Shown in pieces: positions 799-6,250 of a stretch of 6,289 bases of DNA. The position numbers and the translations under genes were made by a program. Origin of the DNA: a virus (lineage: Duplodnaviria > Heunggongvirae > Uroviricota > Caudoviricetes); the IMG/VR virus record IMGVR_UViG_2606217107_000014. One strand, 5' to 3'. The number at the start of each line of letters is the position of its first letter. Position 1 is the first letter of the stretch. The notes beneath the pieces are model-generated. The model was not told the origin of the DNA and made no database searches. It was given only the letters and a program-made list of their open reading frames with translations.

Positions 799-874
799 GG
801 CCCTTTAGCTCAGTGGTGAGAGCGAGCGACTCATAATCGCCAGGTCGCTGGTTCAAATCCAGCAAGGGCCACCA
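799..874 (+). tRNA. ileZ: tRNA with CAT anticodon (Ile2/lysidine-type or Met); 76 nt with encoded CCA
   Basis: Hand-folded cloverleaf: acceptor 799-805 GGCCCTT pairs with 864-870 AAGGGCC; D-arm AGCTCAGTGGTGAGAGC; anticodon loop cgactCATaatcg; T-arm GGTTCAAATCC; discriminator A then CCA at 872-874. Symbol by analogy to the ileZ-argN-argO cluster of Stx phages (recalled); Ile vs Met cannot be decided from sequence alone. Confidence 0.85.
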
Positions 875-881
875 TCACATA

Positions 882-958
882 CCGCCATTAGCTCATCAGG
901 AAAGAGCGCCAGCCTTCGAAGCTGGTTGCGCGGGGTTCGAGTCCTCGATGGCGGTCCA
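882..958 (+). tRNA. argN: tRNA-Arg (anticodon TCG), 77 nt with encoded CCA
   Basis: Acceptor 882-888 CCGCCAT pairs with ATGGCGG; D stem GCTC/GAGC; anticodon stem CCAGC/GCTGG with loop cTTCGaa (anticodon TCG); T stem CGGGG/CCTCG (one G-U) with TTCGAGT loop; discriminator T then CCA at 956-958. Symbol assigned by order, recalled not verified. Confidence 0.85.
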
Positions 959-971
959 TTATCGGTATTCT

Positions 972-1048
972 GCGTTGTTAGCTCAGCCGGACAGAGCAAT
1001 TGCCTTCTAAGTAATCGGTCACTGGTTCGAATCCAGTACAACGCGCCA
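972..1048 (+). tRNA. argO: tRNA-Arg (anticodon TCT, reads rare AGA/AGG), 77 nt with encoded CCA
   Basis: Acceptor 972-978 GCGTTGT pairs with 1038-1044 ACAACGC; D stem GCTC/GAGC; anticodon stem ATTGC/GTAAT with loop cTTCTaa; T stem ACTGG/CCAGT with TTCGAAT loop; discriminator G then CCA 1046-1048. Symbol assigned by order. Confidence 0.85.
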
Positions 1049-1083: not shown

Positions 1084-1211
1084 AATTTGCTGAAAAAGAA
1101 AACATCAGATGGTTAGTCGGGTATCAGTTATCTGGTGAAATTTTTAAATACCTCACAATTCAGGAAGGTGATTATTGTTTTTCTGGTGGGGAATTTGTTA
1201 AAAATCACTCC

Positions 1212-1396
1212 GCATGATGAATCCCCCTAAGCGGTGGGGCGACTGGCAAGGCTCCATTACGATGGTCACAATCCGCAGATTTAGTTTGCCAGGCTGAATC
1301 TACCGGGAGGCACCCGGCATCATGCATAATGTGGAAAATTGGAAATGTATTCAGGCCTCTACGAATTTTAGTAGAGGCTTTTTTTTGAGTAAAAAA
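1212..1396 (+). ncRNA. Candidate structured small RNA, copy A (structured core ~1212-1325 plus its own terminator 1365-1396)
   Basis: Conserved 5' block (cATGaTGAATCCCCCT..GCGGTGGGgCGACTGG) and 3' block (CTGAAtCtaCCGGGAGGCACCCGGCAtCATG) shared with copy B. Closing helix 1212-1219 GCATGATG pairs with 1318-1325 CATCATGC. Internal hairpin CCAT-tacg-ATGG (1254-1265) with a UNCG-type loop. Terminator GCCTCTAC / GTAGAGGC with 8-nt loop followed by T8 (1389-1396). No ORF or convincing promoter. Confidence 0.4.
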
Positions 1397-1427: not shown

Positions 1428-1615
1428 GAGAATACATTTTTTATTATTTGCCTGAAAATAGTACCCTGAGGTTATTGTTGTTTTCAACAGGCTGATTTGT
1501 GTTCTGATCGGGGATGTGACAAGGAACATACGTTCTTATGTGAAAATGTTAAATTCTTCACATTTCAGTGAGTTGAGTGTTGATTTCGTTTTATCTTTTT
1601 TGTTAAAAAAGTATT

Positions 1616-1795
1616 GCATGGTGAATCCCCCTGTGCGGTGGGACGACTGGTGACAACAATTCATCATCCGTGATGACCCAGAAGAGATCGCGGGTTCAGT
1701 GGCACCGGGCTGAACTCACCGGGAGGCACCCGGCACCATGTTCATGGTGATACAGAAATGCGGCTTCAGCCCCTCTCCGGAGGGGCTTTCTTATG
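1616..1795 (+). ncRNA. Candidate structured small RNA, copy B (diverged paralogue of copy A; core ~1616-1741 plus terminator-like hairpin 1768-1794)
   Basis: Same conserved 5' and 3' blocks as copy A. Closing helix 1616-1623 GCATGGTG pairs with 1734-1741 CACCATGT; the A-T pair of copy A is a G-C pair here (compensatory change). Internal hairpin TCATCA-tccg-TGATGA (1651-1666, UNCG loop). Helix GTTCAG (1694-1699) / CTGAAC (1710-1715) matches copy A's GATTTAG/CTGAATC with a U-G to C-G change. 3' hairpin AGCCCCTC-tccg-GAGGGGCT followed by TTCTTAT. Confidence 0.4.
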
Positions 1796-1798
1796 GAC

Positions 1799-4732: not shown

Positions 4733-4948
4733 ATGTACCAGATGGAAAAAATCACAACAGGTGTGTCATACACCACGTCAGCGGTGGGAACGGGCTACTG
4801 GTTCCTGCAGTTGCTGGACAGGGTTTCCCCGTCTCAGTGGGCGGCAATAGGCGTGCTGGGGAGTCTGTTGTTTGGGCTGCTGACATATCTGACTAACCTG
4901 TATTTCAAAATCAGAGAGGACCGTCGTAAGGCGGCGCGGGGAGAGTAA
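4733..4948 (+). CDS. S: Class II holin (pinholin, phage-21 S-type) with dual-start motif
   Basis: 71 aa; Met1 and Met4 (MYQMEK...) give the antiholin/holin dual start; a weakly hydrophobic Gly/Ala/Ser-rich first segment ([18 protein letters not shown]) and a second hydrophobic segment ([18 protein letters not shown]); charged C-terminal tail [17 protein letters not shown] lies 8 nt upstream. Matches my recollection of S21. Confidence 0.85.
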
Positions 4949-4952
4949 AGCG

Positions 4953-5483
4953 ATGAAGAAAAAATACGAACTGGTTGTTAAAGGGATAAATAATTACCCG
5001 AATAAGATTACTGTTACTGTGGCACTGGAAATTGGTGGGTATCCGTCACTGTTGTTGCCAGATGTGGCGATTAGTCTTGACCGTACTGAAGATGCCACGC
5101 TGGAGTTTTACGAAGCTGAGGCGAAAAAGCAGGCGAAGCAGTTTTTCATGGATGTTGCTGCCGGGTTATGTGAAGGGAACGAACCGTTGCCGGAAAAGCG
5201 CCCCGTAATTTTAGAGGCGCAGGATGTGTTGATAACCTACAGAGGAAAACTACCGGGAATAATTACTGGTTCTCTGAAGACGCCACCGACGGCATTGCGG
5301 TCAGAAAACGATGATATTGAATCACGCATTGAAAAACTGGAGTGCTATATCGCTGAATTGAAAAAAAGCACCCCAACAAAAAATGAGGTGCTTGCAGCAG
5401 ATGAAATGAAAGAAACTATTCTTGATCGCGCGGCGCATCTAAGCTGCGCTTCACTGTTGAAAGAGCATCTTCAGCAGCCTTGA
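4953..5483 (+). CDS. Hypothetical protein (176 aa) inserted between holin and endolysin; function unknown
   Basis: ATG 4 nt after the S stop codon, with a GGGGAGAG SD lying inside the S 3' end. No transmembrane segment; C-terminal third is charged and likely helical. Sampled 60-nt stretches are visibly more AT-rich than nanS-p or R. Confidence 0.55.
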   Translation: MKKKYELVVKGINNYPNKITVTVALEIGGYPSLLLPDVAISLDRTEDATLEFYEAEAKKQAKQFFMDVAAGLCEGNEPLPEKRPVILEAQDVLITYRGKLPGIITGSLKTPPTALRSENDDIESRIEKLECYIAELKKSTPTKNEVLAADEMKETILDRAAHLSCASLLKEHLQQP

Positions 5484-5628
5484 GGAATCTTTTATCATCA
5501 CGAGCAACTGTCTTTGGTATTTCTTTAATTAGATGTTCCATTTCGGCGATCAGGTAATCTGACACAGCGTTATTTTTACTTAGTGCATCCATTGCTTTGA
5601 TTATCTTTGCGAGGCAGCCATCTCGCAT
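5416..5628 (-). CDS. Possible small helical protein (70 aa from ATG at 5628; ORF track extends to a GTG at 5655)
   Basis: Convergent to the 176-aa ORF and overlapping its last 68 nt. Amino-acid composition looks protein-like (K/E/A/L/D-rich). No clear SD. A perfect palindrome sits immediately upstream of the ATG on the minus strand. Confidence 0.3.
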   Translation of the reverse strand: MRDGCLAKIIKAMDALSKNNAVSDYLIAEMEHLIKEIPKTVARDDKRFLKAAEDALSTVKRSLDAPRDQE

Positions 5629-5639
5629 TGTTGAGTTTA

Positions 5640-5660
5640 CGCCAGTGCCCACCACTGGCG
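5640..5660. repeat. Perfect 8-bp inverted repeat with 5-nt spacer (CGCCAGTG-cccac-CACTGGCG)
   Basis: Read directly from the sequence. Not followed by a T-tract on either strand, so not a classical terminator; candidate operator or RNA hairpin. Confidence 0.5.
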
Positions 5661-5716
5661 GGCTGAAGACTTAACATATCCAGGGATTCGGAACCGATAA
5701 ATCCTGATAAATATCC

Positions 5717-6250
5717 ATGAGCGCAAAAATCAGATACGGCCTGTCAGCTGCTGTTCTGGCGCTGATTGCTGCAGGCGCGTCTGCTCCTCAGATACTTGAC
5801 CAGTTTCTGGACGAAAAAGAGGGTAACCACACAACGGCATACCGTGATGGTGCAGGTATCTGGACCATCTGCCGTGGTGCCATCATGGTGGATGGCAAAC
5901 CTGTCGTTCCGGGCATGAAGTTGTCGAAGGAAAAATGCGACCAGGTTAACGCCATTGAGCGTGATAAAGCGCTGGCGTGGGTGGAGAAAAACATCAGAGT
6001 GCCGCTGACCGAACCCCAGAAAGCGGGGATCGCGTCATTCTGTCCGTACAACATTGGTCCCGGTAAGTGTTTCCCGTCGACGTTTTATAAACGAATTAAT
6101 GCAGGCGATCGCAGGGGGGCGTGTGAGGCGATTCGCTGGTGGATTAAGGACGGTGGCAGAGACTGCCGTATTCGCTCAAACAACTGTTACGGTCAGGTAT
6201 CCCGTCGCGACCAGGAGAGTGCGCTGGCGTGCTGGGGAATTGACAGATAA
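5717..6250 (+). CDS. R: SAR endolysin (T4-lysozyme-like muramidase with N-terminal signal-arrest-release segment)
   Basis: 177 aa; N-terminal Gly/Ala-rich weakly hydrophobic segment (GLSAAVLALIAAGASAP) and E35-D44-T50 with the 9/6 spacing of the T4 lysozyme catalytic triad. Same length as the lysozymes I recall from Qin (rrrQ) and 933W. No SD within 12 nt of the ATG. Confidence 0.85.
   Translation: MSAKIRYGLSAAVLALIAAGASAPQILDQFLDEKEGNHTTAYRDGAGIWTICRGAIMVDGKPVVPGMKLSKEKCDQVNAIERDKALAWVEKNIRVPLTEPQKAGIASFCPYNIGPGKCFPSTFYKRINAGDRRGACEAIRWWIKDGGRDCRIRSNNCYGQVSRRDQESALACWGIDR

What the first reader, a model, noticed from the sequence alone, without database searches (positions are those of the whole stretch)
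5416..5660. Convergent overlapping small ORF with a perfect palindrome immediately upstream
A 70-79 aa minus-strand ORF overlaps the 3' end of the 176-aa gene by 68 nt, so at most an antisense relationship and possibly a two-gene module. A perfect 8-5-8 inverted repeat (CGCCAGTG-cccac-CACTGGCG, 5640-5660) sits just upstream of its ATG and contains the alternative GTG start. A small helical protein next to a perfect palindrome is the usual layout of an autoregulated DNA-binding regulator, or the hairpin may occlude the start codon at RNA level. Either reading would make the insert a self-contained regulated module.
Basis: seen in the sequence. Interest (0 to 1): 0.55.

Follow-up and report, generated by a model that had tools for sequence, protein, structure and literature searches.

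The report
Truncated prophage moron behind conserved leader
The small reverse-strand ORF is a deletion-damaged copy of a real prophage accessory gene, and the palindrome is one stem of a conserved, apparently undescribed leader RNA that precedes many unrelated small genes in enterobacterial prophages.

Summary
The ORF (5416-5655, minus strand), its 68-nt overlap with the 176-aa gene and the perfect 8-5-8 palindrome (5640-5660) are all present.

The ORF belongs to a real 78-101-aa protein family (phrog_18136; dN/dS 0.08-0.30) found in Enterobacterales prophages, always antisense to the late genes. The window copy has lost 100 bp between 9-bp direct repeats. That removed the native Shine-Dalgarno sequence, the ATG and 27 codons.

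The palindrome is helix P2 of a conserved module of about 115 nt. It has a fixed -10-like TAnnnT, an invariant UCAGCC...GGCUGA pairing, P2, and a GAGG/CCUC hairpin holding an anti-Shine-Dalgarno-like sequence. P2 is 97.6% paired across 84 leaders. Seven of its eight pairs show compensatory changes, and its commonest pair at one position is U·G, so it is an RNA stem on the minus strand.

The same leader precedes at least 16 unrelated cargo families and has no Rfam match. It is therefore not this protein's operator. The protein models as a long three-helix bundle with no fold match.

The C-terminal ~60 residues of the 176-aa protein form a conserved convergent partner, so "self-contained module" holds.

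The parts
5416..5655 (-). Truncated copy of the small moron gene. Codons homologous to residues 28-91 of the intact 91-aa protein lie at about 5416-5609. The stretch 5610-5655 is former 5' leader read as codons (ATG at 5628, GTG at 5655).
   Evidence: alignment with intact loci L005-L008 and L010-L013; phrog_18136 matches residues 10-79 only.
5601..5609 (.). Deletion junction. This is the single remaining copy of the 9-bp direct repeat TTATCTTTG. Intact alleles have two copies 100 bp apart, enclosing the native Shine-Dalgarno sequence (AAGGA), the ATG and codons 1-27.
   Evidence: (alignment A2: an exact 100-column gap in the window flanked by TTATCTTTG).
5603..5671 (-). Conserved leader RNA motif, as matched by the covariance model built on helices P1 and P2.
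   Evidence: model R1 scores 51.8 bits, E = 1e-12, over the full model length on the minus strand. Near-identical sequences were in the seed alignment.
5640..5660 (-). Helix P2 of the leader. This is the palindrome of the finding: CGCCAGUG-GUGGG-CACUGGCG on the minus strand.
   Evidence: 8 pairs, 97.6% paired, 7 of 8 with changes on both sides. The commonest pair at alignment columns 14-32 is U·G (43 of 84).
5661..5666 (-). 5' strand of helix P1 (UCAGCC), invariant across the family. The predicted transcription start lies at or next to it.
5614..5619 (-). 3' strand of helix P1 (GGCUG), within the invariant GAUGGCUG motif.
   Evidence: RNAalifold predicts P1 enclosing P2.
5608..5627 (-). Helix P3 in its E. 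coli form (UGCGAG-AUGGCUGC-CUCGCA). It corresponds to GAGG...CCUC around GAUGGCUGAUUA in most other leaders.
   Evidence: (present in the minimum-free-energy fold).
5673..5678 (-). -10-like hexamer TATGTT, 6 nt upstream of UCAGCC.
   Evidence: all 90 distinct leaders have TAnnnT ending 6 nt (80 leaders) or 7 nt (10 leaders) upstream of (T)CAGCC. Its function as a promoter element is inferred, not shown.
5679..5716 (-). Conserved upstream part of the module (TATCAGGAT...ATCCCTGG inverted repeat over the expected -35 region). It abuts the start codon of lysozyme R at 5717.
   Evidence: the same segment lies upstream of family members that have no R gene next to them.
5356..5393 (-). Intrinsic terminator of the small gene (10-bp stem plus a T run), 23 nt after its stop and lying inside the coding sequence of the 176-aa gene.
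   Evidence: Terminator-like hairpins at the same position in L118 and L110, with different stem sequences, were detected.
4953..5483 (+). The 176-aa late-strand gene. It is a DUF1327/YdfR domain (residues 1-112) fused to the convergent partner segment 'B' (residues about 115-176, nt about 5295-5483).
5416..5483 (.). The 68-nt convergent overlap of the two coding sequences.
   Evidence: an identical 68-nt overlap in L007, L013, L015, L115, L116, L118, L119.

Best explanation
The window lies in the late region of a lambdoid prophage. The order is holin S, a DUF1327 gene, the insert, then lysozyme R.

The minus-strand ORF is a 5'-truncated, probably non-functional allele of a genuine small accessory gene of the moron type. 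It is an independent transcription unit placed antisense inside the late operon. A 100-bp deletion between two copies of TTATCTTTG removed its ribosome-binding site, its start codon and the most conserved N-terminal helix. What reads as a 70- or 79-aa ORF is residues 28-91 fused in frame to former leader sequence.

The palindrome is helix P2 of the gene's 5' leader RNA on the minus strand. The leader is a portable promoter-plus-leader module of about 115 nt that is shared by many unrelated small cargo genes. It consists of:
- a -10-like TAnnnT at a fixed distance from the leader;
- an invariant UCAGCC that can pair with an invariant GGCUGA (P1);
- the covarying hairpin P2;
- a hairpin (P3) that pairs a Shine-Dalgarno-like GAGG with an anti-Shine-Dalgarno-like (G)AUUACCUC, a few nucleotides upstream of the real Shine-Dalgarno sequence.

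Shown here: the deletion, the reality of the family, the conservation and covariation of the leader, the strand, the terminator, and the conserved convergent partner.

Inferred: transcription starts at UCAGCC, and the leader controls translation or stability of the cargo mRNA by switching between P1 with Shine-Dalgarno sequestration and P3 with the Shine-Dalgarno free. Also inferred is that the small protein works together with the late-strand partner segment B.
For: Deletion:
- Searches show an exact 100-bp gap flanked by 9-bp repeats. Intact alleles encode MSEENSKENTALFDRIFTLELQVGF... preceded by AAGGA.
- The missing N-terminal helix is the best conserved part in distant homologues.

Real gene:
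- phrog_18136, E = 5e-41.
- Homologues in Salmonella, Citrobacter, Enterobacter, Serratia and Xenorhabdus.
- dN/dS 0.08-0.30.
- Always antisense to neighbouring lysis, tail or terminase genes.

Own terminator. Across cargo types, 52 of 135 have a terminator-like hairpin within 110 nt of the stop, against 5 of 135 control regions.

Different composition: G+C 0.39-0.43 against 0.53-0.55 in the flanks, and the GC skew changes sign.

Leader:
- The conserved sequence lies upstream of distant homologues that have no R gene nearby.
- At least 120 viral contigs and about 55 species-representative genomes, all Enterobacterales, carry it.
- It is followed by at least 16 unrelated cargo clusters.
- P2 covariation and the U·G pair.
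- TAnnnT at a fixed distance in 90 of 90 leaders.
- Alternative folds seen.

Partner: one search shows the conserved motif K(D/N)E(T/V)L.LDE(L/M)KE.ILDWA and the conserved 68-nt overlap.
Against: - No transcript, transcription-start or protein data were available. The simple sigma-70 scan found no canonical promoter upstream of the leader, and no -35 consensus is evident.
- P1 is invariant, so it has no covariation support. Its conservation could reflect recognition of the sequence rather than pairing.
- P3 covariation is thin, and P3 is replaced by a different hairpin in the 104-aa cargo type.
- P2 is absent in Xenorhabdus and Photorhabdus leaders and short in Pantoea, so it is dispensable for whatever the core does.
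- In this window the hairpin is equally perfect on the plus-strand late mRNA.
- The partner segment B is only weakly constrained outside the overlap (dN/dS about 0.3-0.9). In L014 a 1-nt deletion frameshifts it.
- The deletion allele occurs in several genomes and viral contigs, so some residual function cannot be excluded.
Confidence: 0.7

Rival explanations
1. One reading: the small helical protein is an autoregulated DNA-binding repressor and the palindrome is its operator.
For: A small all-helical protein lies next to a perfect palindrome. A second inverted repeat, CAGGAT...ATCCCTG, overlaps the expected -35 region.
Against: - There is no HTH, RHH or other DNA-binding family hit.
- The helices of 36, 19 and 19 residues do not resemble an HTH, and no fold match has E < 1.
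- The same palindrome and leader precede at least 16 unrelated proteins.
- The stem sequence changes freely while pairing is kept, and U·G is the commonest pair at one position. That is the signature of RNA rather than of a protein-recognised DNA site.
Confidence: 0.04
2. The hairpin acts on the plus-strand late mRNA just upstream of lysozyme R, for example as a processing or stability element or as a modulator of R translation.
For: In E. coli the segment 5640-5716 is shared upstream of R in about 1450 genomes, whatever cassette lies beyond it. The plus-strand fold is stable (-16.3 kcal/mol, z = -2.8).
Against: - The leader travels with the small reverse-strand genes into tail and terminase regions that have no R gene.
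- U·G at columns 14-32 in 43 of 84 leaders would be a C·A mismatch on the plus strand. There are 62 wobble cells on the gene-sense strand against 6 cells that would be wobble on the other strand.
- No T run follows the hairpin on either strand, so it is not a terminator.
Confidence: 0.08
3. The conserved leader is mainly a recombination handle. It would be a conserved linker that allows homologous exchange of cargo cassettes, and its secondary structure would be incidental.
For: - Homology between different cassettes in the S-R hotspot breaks close to the palindrome.
- A second conserved block, the partner's N-terminal MTLEQRVEALEK, bounds many cassettes on the other side.
- The window's own deletion shows the region is prone to rearrangement.
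Against: Compensatory changes in 7 of 8 P2 pairs and preserved wobble pairs show selection on pairing. A pure homology handle does not need that. The fixed spacing to a -10-like hexamer and to the Shine-Dalgarno sequence and ATG also points to an expression function. The two roles do not exclude each other.
Confidence: 0.12
4. The minus-strand transcript works chiefly as an antisense RNA against the late transcript (the 3' end of the DUF1327-B gene), and the peptide is secondary.
For: The 68-nt convergent overlap is conserved. An antisense RNA inside prophage late genes that blocks superinfection is documented (STnc6030, PMC7067206).
Against: There is strong purifying selection on the small protein, a conserved Shine-Dalgarno sequence and ATG, and a confident helical model. 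In the overlap, the small gene's reading frame is the constrained one.
Confidence: 0.1

Closest known systems
Phage morons: independent transcription units inside late operons, such as lambda bor and lom or HK97 gp15 (own knowledge; review PMC3594210, listed but not read)
   Same: A gene inserted between late genes, with its own terminator, lower G+C and presence/absence polymorphism among related phages. Like bor, it lies antisense to late transcription.
   Different: Here one conserved, structured promoter-and-leader module is shared by many unrelated cargo genes. The cargo also comes with a convergent late-strand partner. Classical morons each carry their own signals.
PHROG family phrog_18136 (unknown function)
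   Same: The window ORF matches at E = 5e-41. Intact relatives match over the full length.
   Different: The window copy lacks profile positions 1-17 and the native start. The family has no assigned function.
Cis-acting 5' leader RNAs that toggle Shine-Dalgarno access: riboswitch expression platforms and RNA thermometers (own knowledge)
   Same: A conserved structured element between a predicted transcription start and the Shine-Dalgarno sequence. It contains an anti-Shine-Dalgarno-like CCUC that can pair either with an upstream GAGG decoy or with the real Shine-Dalgarno sequence.
   Different: No ligand or signal is known. There is no Rfam match. The invariant 12-nt core suggests recognition by a trans-acting factor. 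The switch itself is inferred only.
Cassette systems with conserved flanks and variable cargo: integron attC cassettes and polymorphic toxin/immunity modules such as CdiA-CT/CdiI (own knowledge)
   Same: A conserved palindrome-bearing flank lies next to highly diverse small genes. The partner protein has a conserved N-terminus and a C-terminus that varies with the neighbouring gene.
   Different: No integrase and no toxin domain are present. The genes are convergent rather than co-directional. The hairpin shows RNA-type wobble on the cargo sense strand and sits upstream with the promoter. The covariation between partner and cargo is partly trivial, because the two share DNA.
STnc6030, an antisense RNA inside the BTP1 prophage late genes (PMC7067206)
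   Same: Minus-strand expression from within a prophage late operon, with a possible role in phage-phage interference.
   Different: STnc6030 is a non-coding RNA of more than 700 nt. Here a conserved protein is encoded, and no sequence similarity to STnc6030 was tested or seen.
Small phage repressors with palindromic operators, such as P22 Arc and Mnt or lambda Cro (own knowledge)
   Same: Small size and a palindrome in the upstream region.
   Different: There is no RHH or HTH signature or fold. The palindrome is not specific to this protein, and it covaries as RNA does.

Membership tests
Phage moron (independent transcription unit in a late operon) | Own intrinsic terminator directly after the gene | tested here: met
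   minus-strand terminator at 5393->5366 plus a T run, 23 nt after the stop; 52 of 135 cargo genes against 5 of 135 control regions.
Phage moron (independent transcription unit in a late operon) | Own promoter | tested here: inconclusive
   A -10-like TAnnnT lies at a fixed distance in 90 of 90 leaders. No canonical sigma-70 promoter was found by scanning, and no transcription-start data were available.
Phage moron (independent transcription unit in a late operon) | Composition differs from the flanks, and presence/absence varies among related phages | tested here: met
   (G+C 0.39-0.43 against 0.53-0.55); at least 6 alternative cassettes at the same S-R site.
phrog_18136 small protein family | Significant profile match | tested here: met
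   E = 5.4e-41, residues 10-79 against profile positions 18-87 of 87.
phrog_18136 small protein family | Full-length protein with the native start and the N-terminal helix (LFDRIFTLELQVGF) | tested here: not met
   a 100-bp deletion removes the Shine-Dalgarno sequence, the ATG and codons 1-27.
Autoregulated small DNA-binding repressor with its operator | Recognisable DNA-binding domain or fold | tested here: not met
   (no such family). (pLDDT 82 three-helix bundle; no PDB or viral fold match with E < 1).
Autoregulated small DNA-binding repressor with its operator | Palindrome specific to, and co-inherited with, this protein | tested here: not met
   the same leader and palindrome precede at least 16 unrelated cargo clusters.
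Structured cis-regulatory leader RNA | Conserved secondary structure supported by compensatory changes on the sense strand | tested here: met
   P2 is 97.6% paired, 7 of 8 pairs have changes on both sides, U·G is the commonest pair at one position, and 0 of 500 shuffles reach the observed values. This holds for P2 only. P1 is invariant.
Structured cis-regulatory leader RNA | Lies within the transcribed 5' UTR and affects expression | not testable with these tools
   Needs transcription-start mapping and reporter assays.
Any Rfam 15 family | Covariance-model match at or near the gathering score | tested here: not met
   (no match at the leader); only a 15.6-bit isrK-like match (gathering score 50) on the opposite strand, over the neighbouring terminator.
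Intrinsic terminator (as a reading of the palindrome) | G+C-rich hairpin followed by a T run | tested here: not met
   no T run after the hairpin on either strand, and the terminator scan does not report it.
DUF1327/YdfR (the 176-aa neighbour) | Pfam PF07041 match | tested here: met
   E = 3.8e-45, residues 1-112. Residues about 115-176 are the separate partner segment.
Toxin-antitoxin or effector-immunity pair | Two adjacent genes that vary together, one neutralising the other | tested here: inconclusive
   a convergent partner is present in 160 of 179 cassettes and its type tracks the cargo type (AMI 0.61). The two share DNA, however, and neither toxicity nor binding could be tested.

The most novel reading that the evidence does not exclude
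The leader is an undescribed structured RNA, possibly a pseudoknot with an anti-Shine-Dalgarno mimic and an invariant GGGAUGGCUGA core read by a trans-acting factor. It would serve as a portable expression platform for a large polymorphic set of two-gene modules in Enterobacterales prophages. Each module would pair a reverse-strand small protein made in the lysogen with a late-strand partner whose variable C-terminus matches it. The pairs would act as cognate partners, for instance in lysis control, superinfection exclusion or phage-phage discrimination.
Probability: 0.3. Interest if true: 0.8.

Novelty: new variant of a known kind. Interest (0 to 1): 0.6.

Why it matters
For this window the practical result is an annotation correction. 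The 70/79-aa ORF should be treated as a 5'-truncated remnant, and its apparent start codons and "operator" are artefacts of a deletion.

The wider result is a lead. A strongly conserved, covarying leader with an invariant core precedes dozens of unrelated, uncharacterised small genes. It was found in at least 120 viral contigs and about 55 species of Enterobacterales, and it is absent from Rfam and from RefSeq annotation.

If it is a regulatory RNA, it defines a common control point for a whole class of prophage accessory genes. It also gives a simple sequence tag for finding them, including many ORFs that annotation pipelines miss. The convergent partner architecture suggests testable protein pairs linked to the lysis and morphogenesis operons.

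Tried and rejected
- Pfam, NCBIfam and PADLOC scans of the small protein, the partner and other cargo proteins gave nothing informative beyond DUF1327, DUF1883 and a weak Lar/ECs_2282 zinc-ribbon match.
- A first AlphaFold model from a shallow alignment was poor (pLDDT 60). A 16-sequence alignment gave pLDDT 82, but Foldseek against PDB and BFVD found no match with E < 1.
- Rfam at gathering and at E-value thresholds found no family for the leader. The weak isrK-like match lies on the other strand over a terminator and was dismissed.
- Full-text searches for the leader sequence found no relevant paper, and a search for DUF1327 found one paper that was not opened. The moron keyword searches listed general reviews, and only the STnc6030 paper was read.
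- An upstream hairpin 'P0' (CAGGrT...AyCCTG) was considered as part of the RNA. It is not universal, and RNAalifold gave no consensus on either strand.
- The search for related loci with the divergent alignment failed for lack of a conserved peptide stretch.
- About 60 of the 116 genome contigs pattern hits were chance or coding matches in G+C-rich taxa and were discarded.
- The covariation between cargo type and partner C-terminus (AMI 0.61) is not used as evidence of interaction, because the two share or adjoin the same DNA.
- Readings of the GAGGGAUGG motif as a CsrA site, or of AUG GCU GAU UAC CUC UGA as a mini-ORF, were considered. They stay speculative and were not pursued.

Full report
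**Setting**

The window is the late region of a lambdoid E. coli prophage. The features in order are:
- the 3' part of a DNA methylase gene;
- three tRNAs;
- two STnc100 copies;
- a 659-aa SASA-family esterase;
- DUF1378 and DUF826 genes;
- a P21-type holin (4733-4948);
- a 176-aa DUF1327/YdfR gene (4953-5483);
- the region of the finding;
- lysozyme R (5717-6250).

An identical stretch lies in E. coli STEC17-183. There PGAP calls the YdfR gene a truncated pseudogene and does not call the small ORF at all.

**Observation**

The ORF at 5416-5655 (minus strand), the 68-nt overlap and the 8-5-8 palindrome at 5640-5660 are exactly as described. One perfect 8-bp inverted repeat is not beyond chance, since 0.6 are expected per window. 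Its significance comes from comparison with related sequences.

**The ORF is a damaged copy of a real gene**

The ORF matches phrog_18136 at E = 5e-41, but only from its residue 10 onward. Database relatives are typically 91 aa and have a different, longer N-terminus.

Aligning the window with four loci that encode the 91-aa form shows an exact 100-bp gap in the window. The gap is bounded by the 9-bp direct repeat TTATCTTTG, of which the window keeps one copy at 5601-5609. The lost segment holds the native Shine-Dalgarno sequence (AAGGA), the ATG and codons 1-27.

These codons encode LFDRIFTLELQVGF, the best conserved stretch in distant homologues from Salmonella, Citrobacter, Enterobacter, Serratia and Xenorhabdus. 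The deletion is therefore the derived state.

The ATG at 5628 and the GTG at 5655 lie in what was the 5' leader. Neither has a Shine-Dalgarno sequence upstream. The deletion allele recurs in 5 of 15 related viral contigs. The intact allele is in 29 of 5426 complete E. coli genomes, annotated as a hypothetical protein.

The family itself is a true coding gene:
- pairwise dN/dS is 0.08-0.30;
- with a 16-sequence alignment AlphaFold gives pLDDT 82 and three helices at residues 3-38, 42-60 and 67-85;
- no DNA-binding family or fold is detected.

**It is an independent, reverse-oriented unit**

A minus-strand intrinsic terminator sits 23 nt after the stop, at 5393->5366. G+C falls to 0.39-0.43 within the insert, against 0.53-0.55 in the flanks, and the GC skew changes sign. 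In every locus examined the family lies antisense to its neighbours, among lysis, tail or terminase genes.

**The palindrome is one helix of a conserved leader**

The upstream regions of distant homologues share a block: UCAGCC, a hairpin, about 15 nt, then GAGGGAUGGCUGAUUACCUC, 3-6 nt, AAGGA, and the ATG. The hairpin sequence changes while pairing is kept. Examples are CGCCAGUG/CACUGGCG here, CGUCCAUG/CAUGGACG in Serratia, and CGUCAGUG/CACUGACG in Salmonella.

The 20-nt core pattern finds at least 120 viral contigs. It also finds about 55 species-representative genomes with the full leader, all of them Enterobacterales. The remaining hits are chance matches in G+C-rich taxa.

On 84 distinct leaders the results for each helix are as follows:
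- **P2, the palindrome.** It is 97.6% paired, and 7 of 8 pairs have changes on both sides. None of 500 shuffles reaches any observed measure, and sliding the 3' partners lowers pairing to 27-49%. At columns 14-32 the pairs are U·G 43, U-A 22 and C-G 18. U·G is a C·A mismatch on the other strand, so the stem is selected as RNA on the gene-sense strand, which is the window's minus strand. Overall there are 62 wobble cells against 6 cells that would be wobble on the opposite strand.
- **P1.** RNAalifold independently predicts UCAGCC:GGCUGA enclosing P2. P1 is invariant and so has no covariation support.
- **P3.** This helix (GAGG/CCUC) encloses the invariant GAUGGCUGAUUA. The E. coli 91-aa type has GCGAG/CUCGC instead.

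Further properties of the leader:
- All 90 distinct leaders carry TAnnnT ending 6 or 7 nt upstream of UCAGCC, mostly preceded by TGGn. That predicts a transcription start at P1. No canonical -35 was found.
- A covariance model of P1 and P2 places the motif at 5671->5603 on the minus strand.
- Single-sequence folds give either P2 with P3, or P1 with P2 plus CCUC paired to the real Shine-Dalgarno sequence. This suggests, but does not show, a translational switch.
- GAU(U/C)ACCUC resembles the 3' end of 16S rRNA (own knowledge).
- No Rfam family matches, RefSeq annotates nothing there, and no paper in the library contains the sequence.

**The leader is not tied to this protein**

Behind the same leader lie at least 16 unrelated cargo clusters of 63-211 aa. 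They include a DUF1883 family, a zinc-ribbon family and many helical proteins without any family assignment.

In E. coli, the segment from the palindrome to the R start codon is shared by about 1450 genomes. It is followed by at least 6 different reverse-oriented genes. This excludes a cognate operator. It also explains why homology between cassettes breaks near the palindrome.

**The overlap partner**

The C-terminal ~60 residues of the 176-aa protein recur next to the small gene in other genera. The segment has a coiled coil followed by the motif K(D/N)E(T/V)L.LDE(L/M)KE.ILDWA. It occurs in three forms:
- as a stand-alone 51-66-aa late-strand ORF;
- fused to DUF1327;
- fused to another protein.

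The same 68-nt overlap is found in seven loci. The small gene's terminator hairpin is encoded inside this partner.

Outside the overlap the partner is only weakly constrained (dN/dS about 0.3-0.9). Within the overlap the small gene's reading frame dominates.

Across all cargo types, 160 of 179 cassettes have a convergent late-strand ORF ending within -60 to +130 nt of the cargo stop. Forty-nine of these share an N-terminal MTLEQRVEALEK-like motif although their cargo differs. A two-gene module is therefore plausible. The covariation between partner and cargo is partly trivial, because the two share DNA.

**Verdict**

The window copy is a truncated remnant. It is a widespread, apparently undescribed promoter-and-leader module, with strong covariation in P2 and an invariant core, that drives a polymorphic set of small prophage genes.

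Noticed in passing
window 1182-1390 and 1586-1798 (+): Two tandem copies of the sRNA family STnc100 (122 and 140 bits) lie upstream of the esterase gene, each ending in a terminator-like hairpin. Two STnc100 copies were also seen in Salmonella locus L122.
   Followed up: partly
window 799-1045 (+): Three tRNA genes lie in a row between the methylase gene and the STnc100 copies, as is typical of Stx-type lambdoid prophages. No stx genes are present in the window.
   Followed up: no
window 4949-5716; loci L001, L002, L009, L027, L038: The holin-to-lysozyme interval is a hotspot with at least 6 alternative inserts. Each has a late-strand gene (often DUF1327 with a variable C-terminal extension) and a reverse-strand gene of 86-210 aa. 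All share the R-proximal segment of about 77 bp.
   Followed up: yes
L119 2352-2373, L115 2352-2369 (late strand): In non-lambdoid contexts the cassette is bounded on its promoter side by an intrinsic terminator that faces the late-operon direction, directly before the next late gene's ribosome-binding site. It gave a weak isrK-like Rfam match (15.6 bits).
   Followed up: partly
L125, L227, L269, L276, L307, L329 and others: Small late-strand ORFs that begin MTLEQRVEALEK, preceded by a conserved ...AERRE.VM reading, flank many cassettes with different cargo. They form a second conserved boundary of the variable region. There are weak matches to phrog_9873 and phrog_1805, both of unknown function.
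   Followed up: partly
L014 (T run of the small-gene terminator): A 1-nt deletion in the terminator's T run frameshifts the DUF1327 fusion, so that it ends early (...KKAPQQKMRYLH). The partner tail is therefore lost in that lineage while the small gene stays intact.
   Followed up: no
L190, L263: Two leader-cargo cassettes with different cargo occur in one phage contig, at different late-region positions. This suggests the module spreads within genomes.
   Followed up: no
window 5701-5719: Lysozyme R has no recognisable Shine-Dalgarno sequence. Its ATG directly abuts the upstream end of the reverse-strand promoter and leader module (CCTGATAAATATCCATG).
   Followed up: no
E. coli K-12-type Qin prophage hits (rrrQ rows): Upstream of rrrQ only window 5673-5720 is conserved. 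That is the promoter-side stub, without P1, P2 or any cargo, which suggests the cassette was lost there.
   Followed up: no
L004 (NZ_CP075652, identical to the window): PGAP annotates the 176-aa DUF1327 fusion as an incomplete pseudogene (its first 114 codons). PHROG phrog_2091, however, covers nearly its full length. The disagreement stems from the mosaic C-terminal partner segment.
   Followed up: partly
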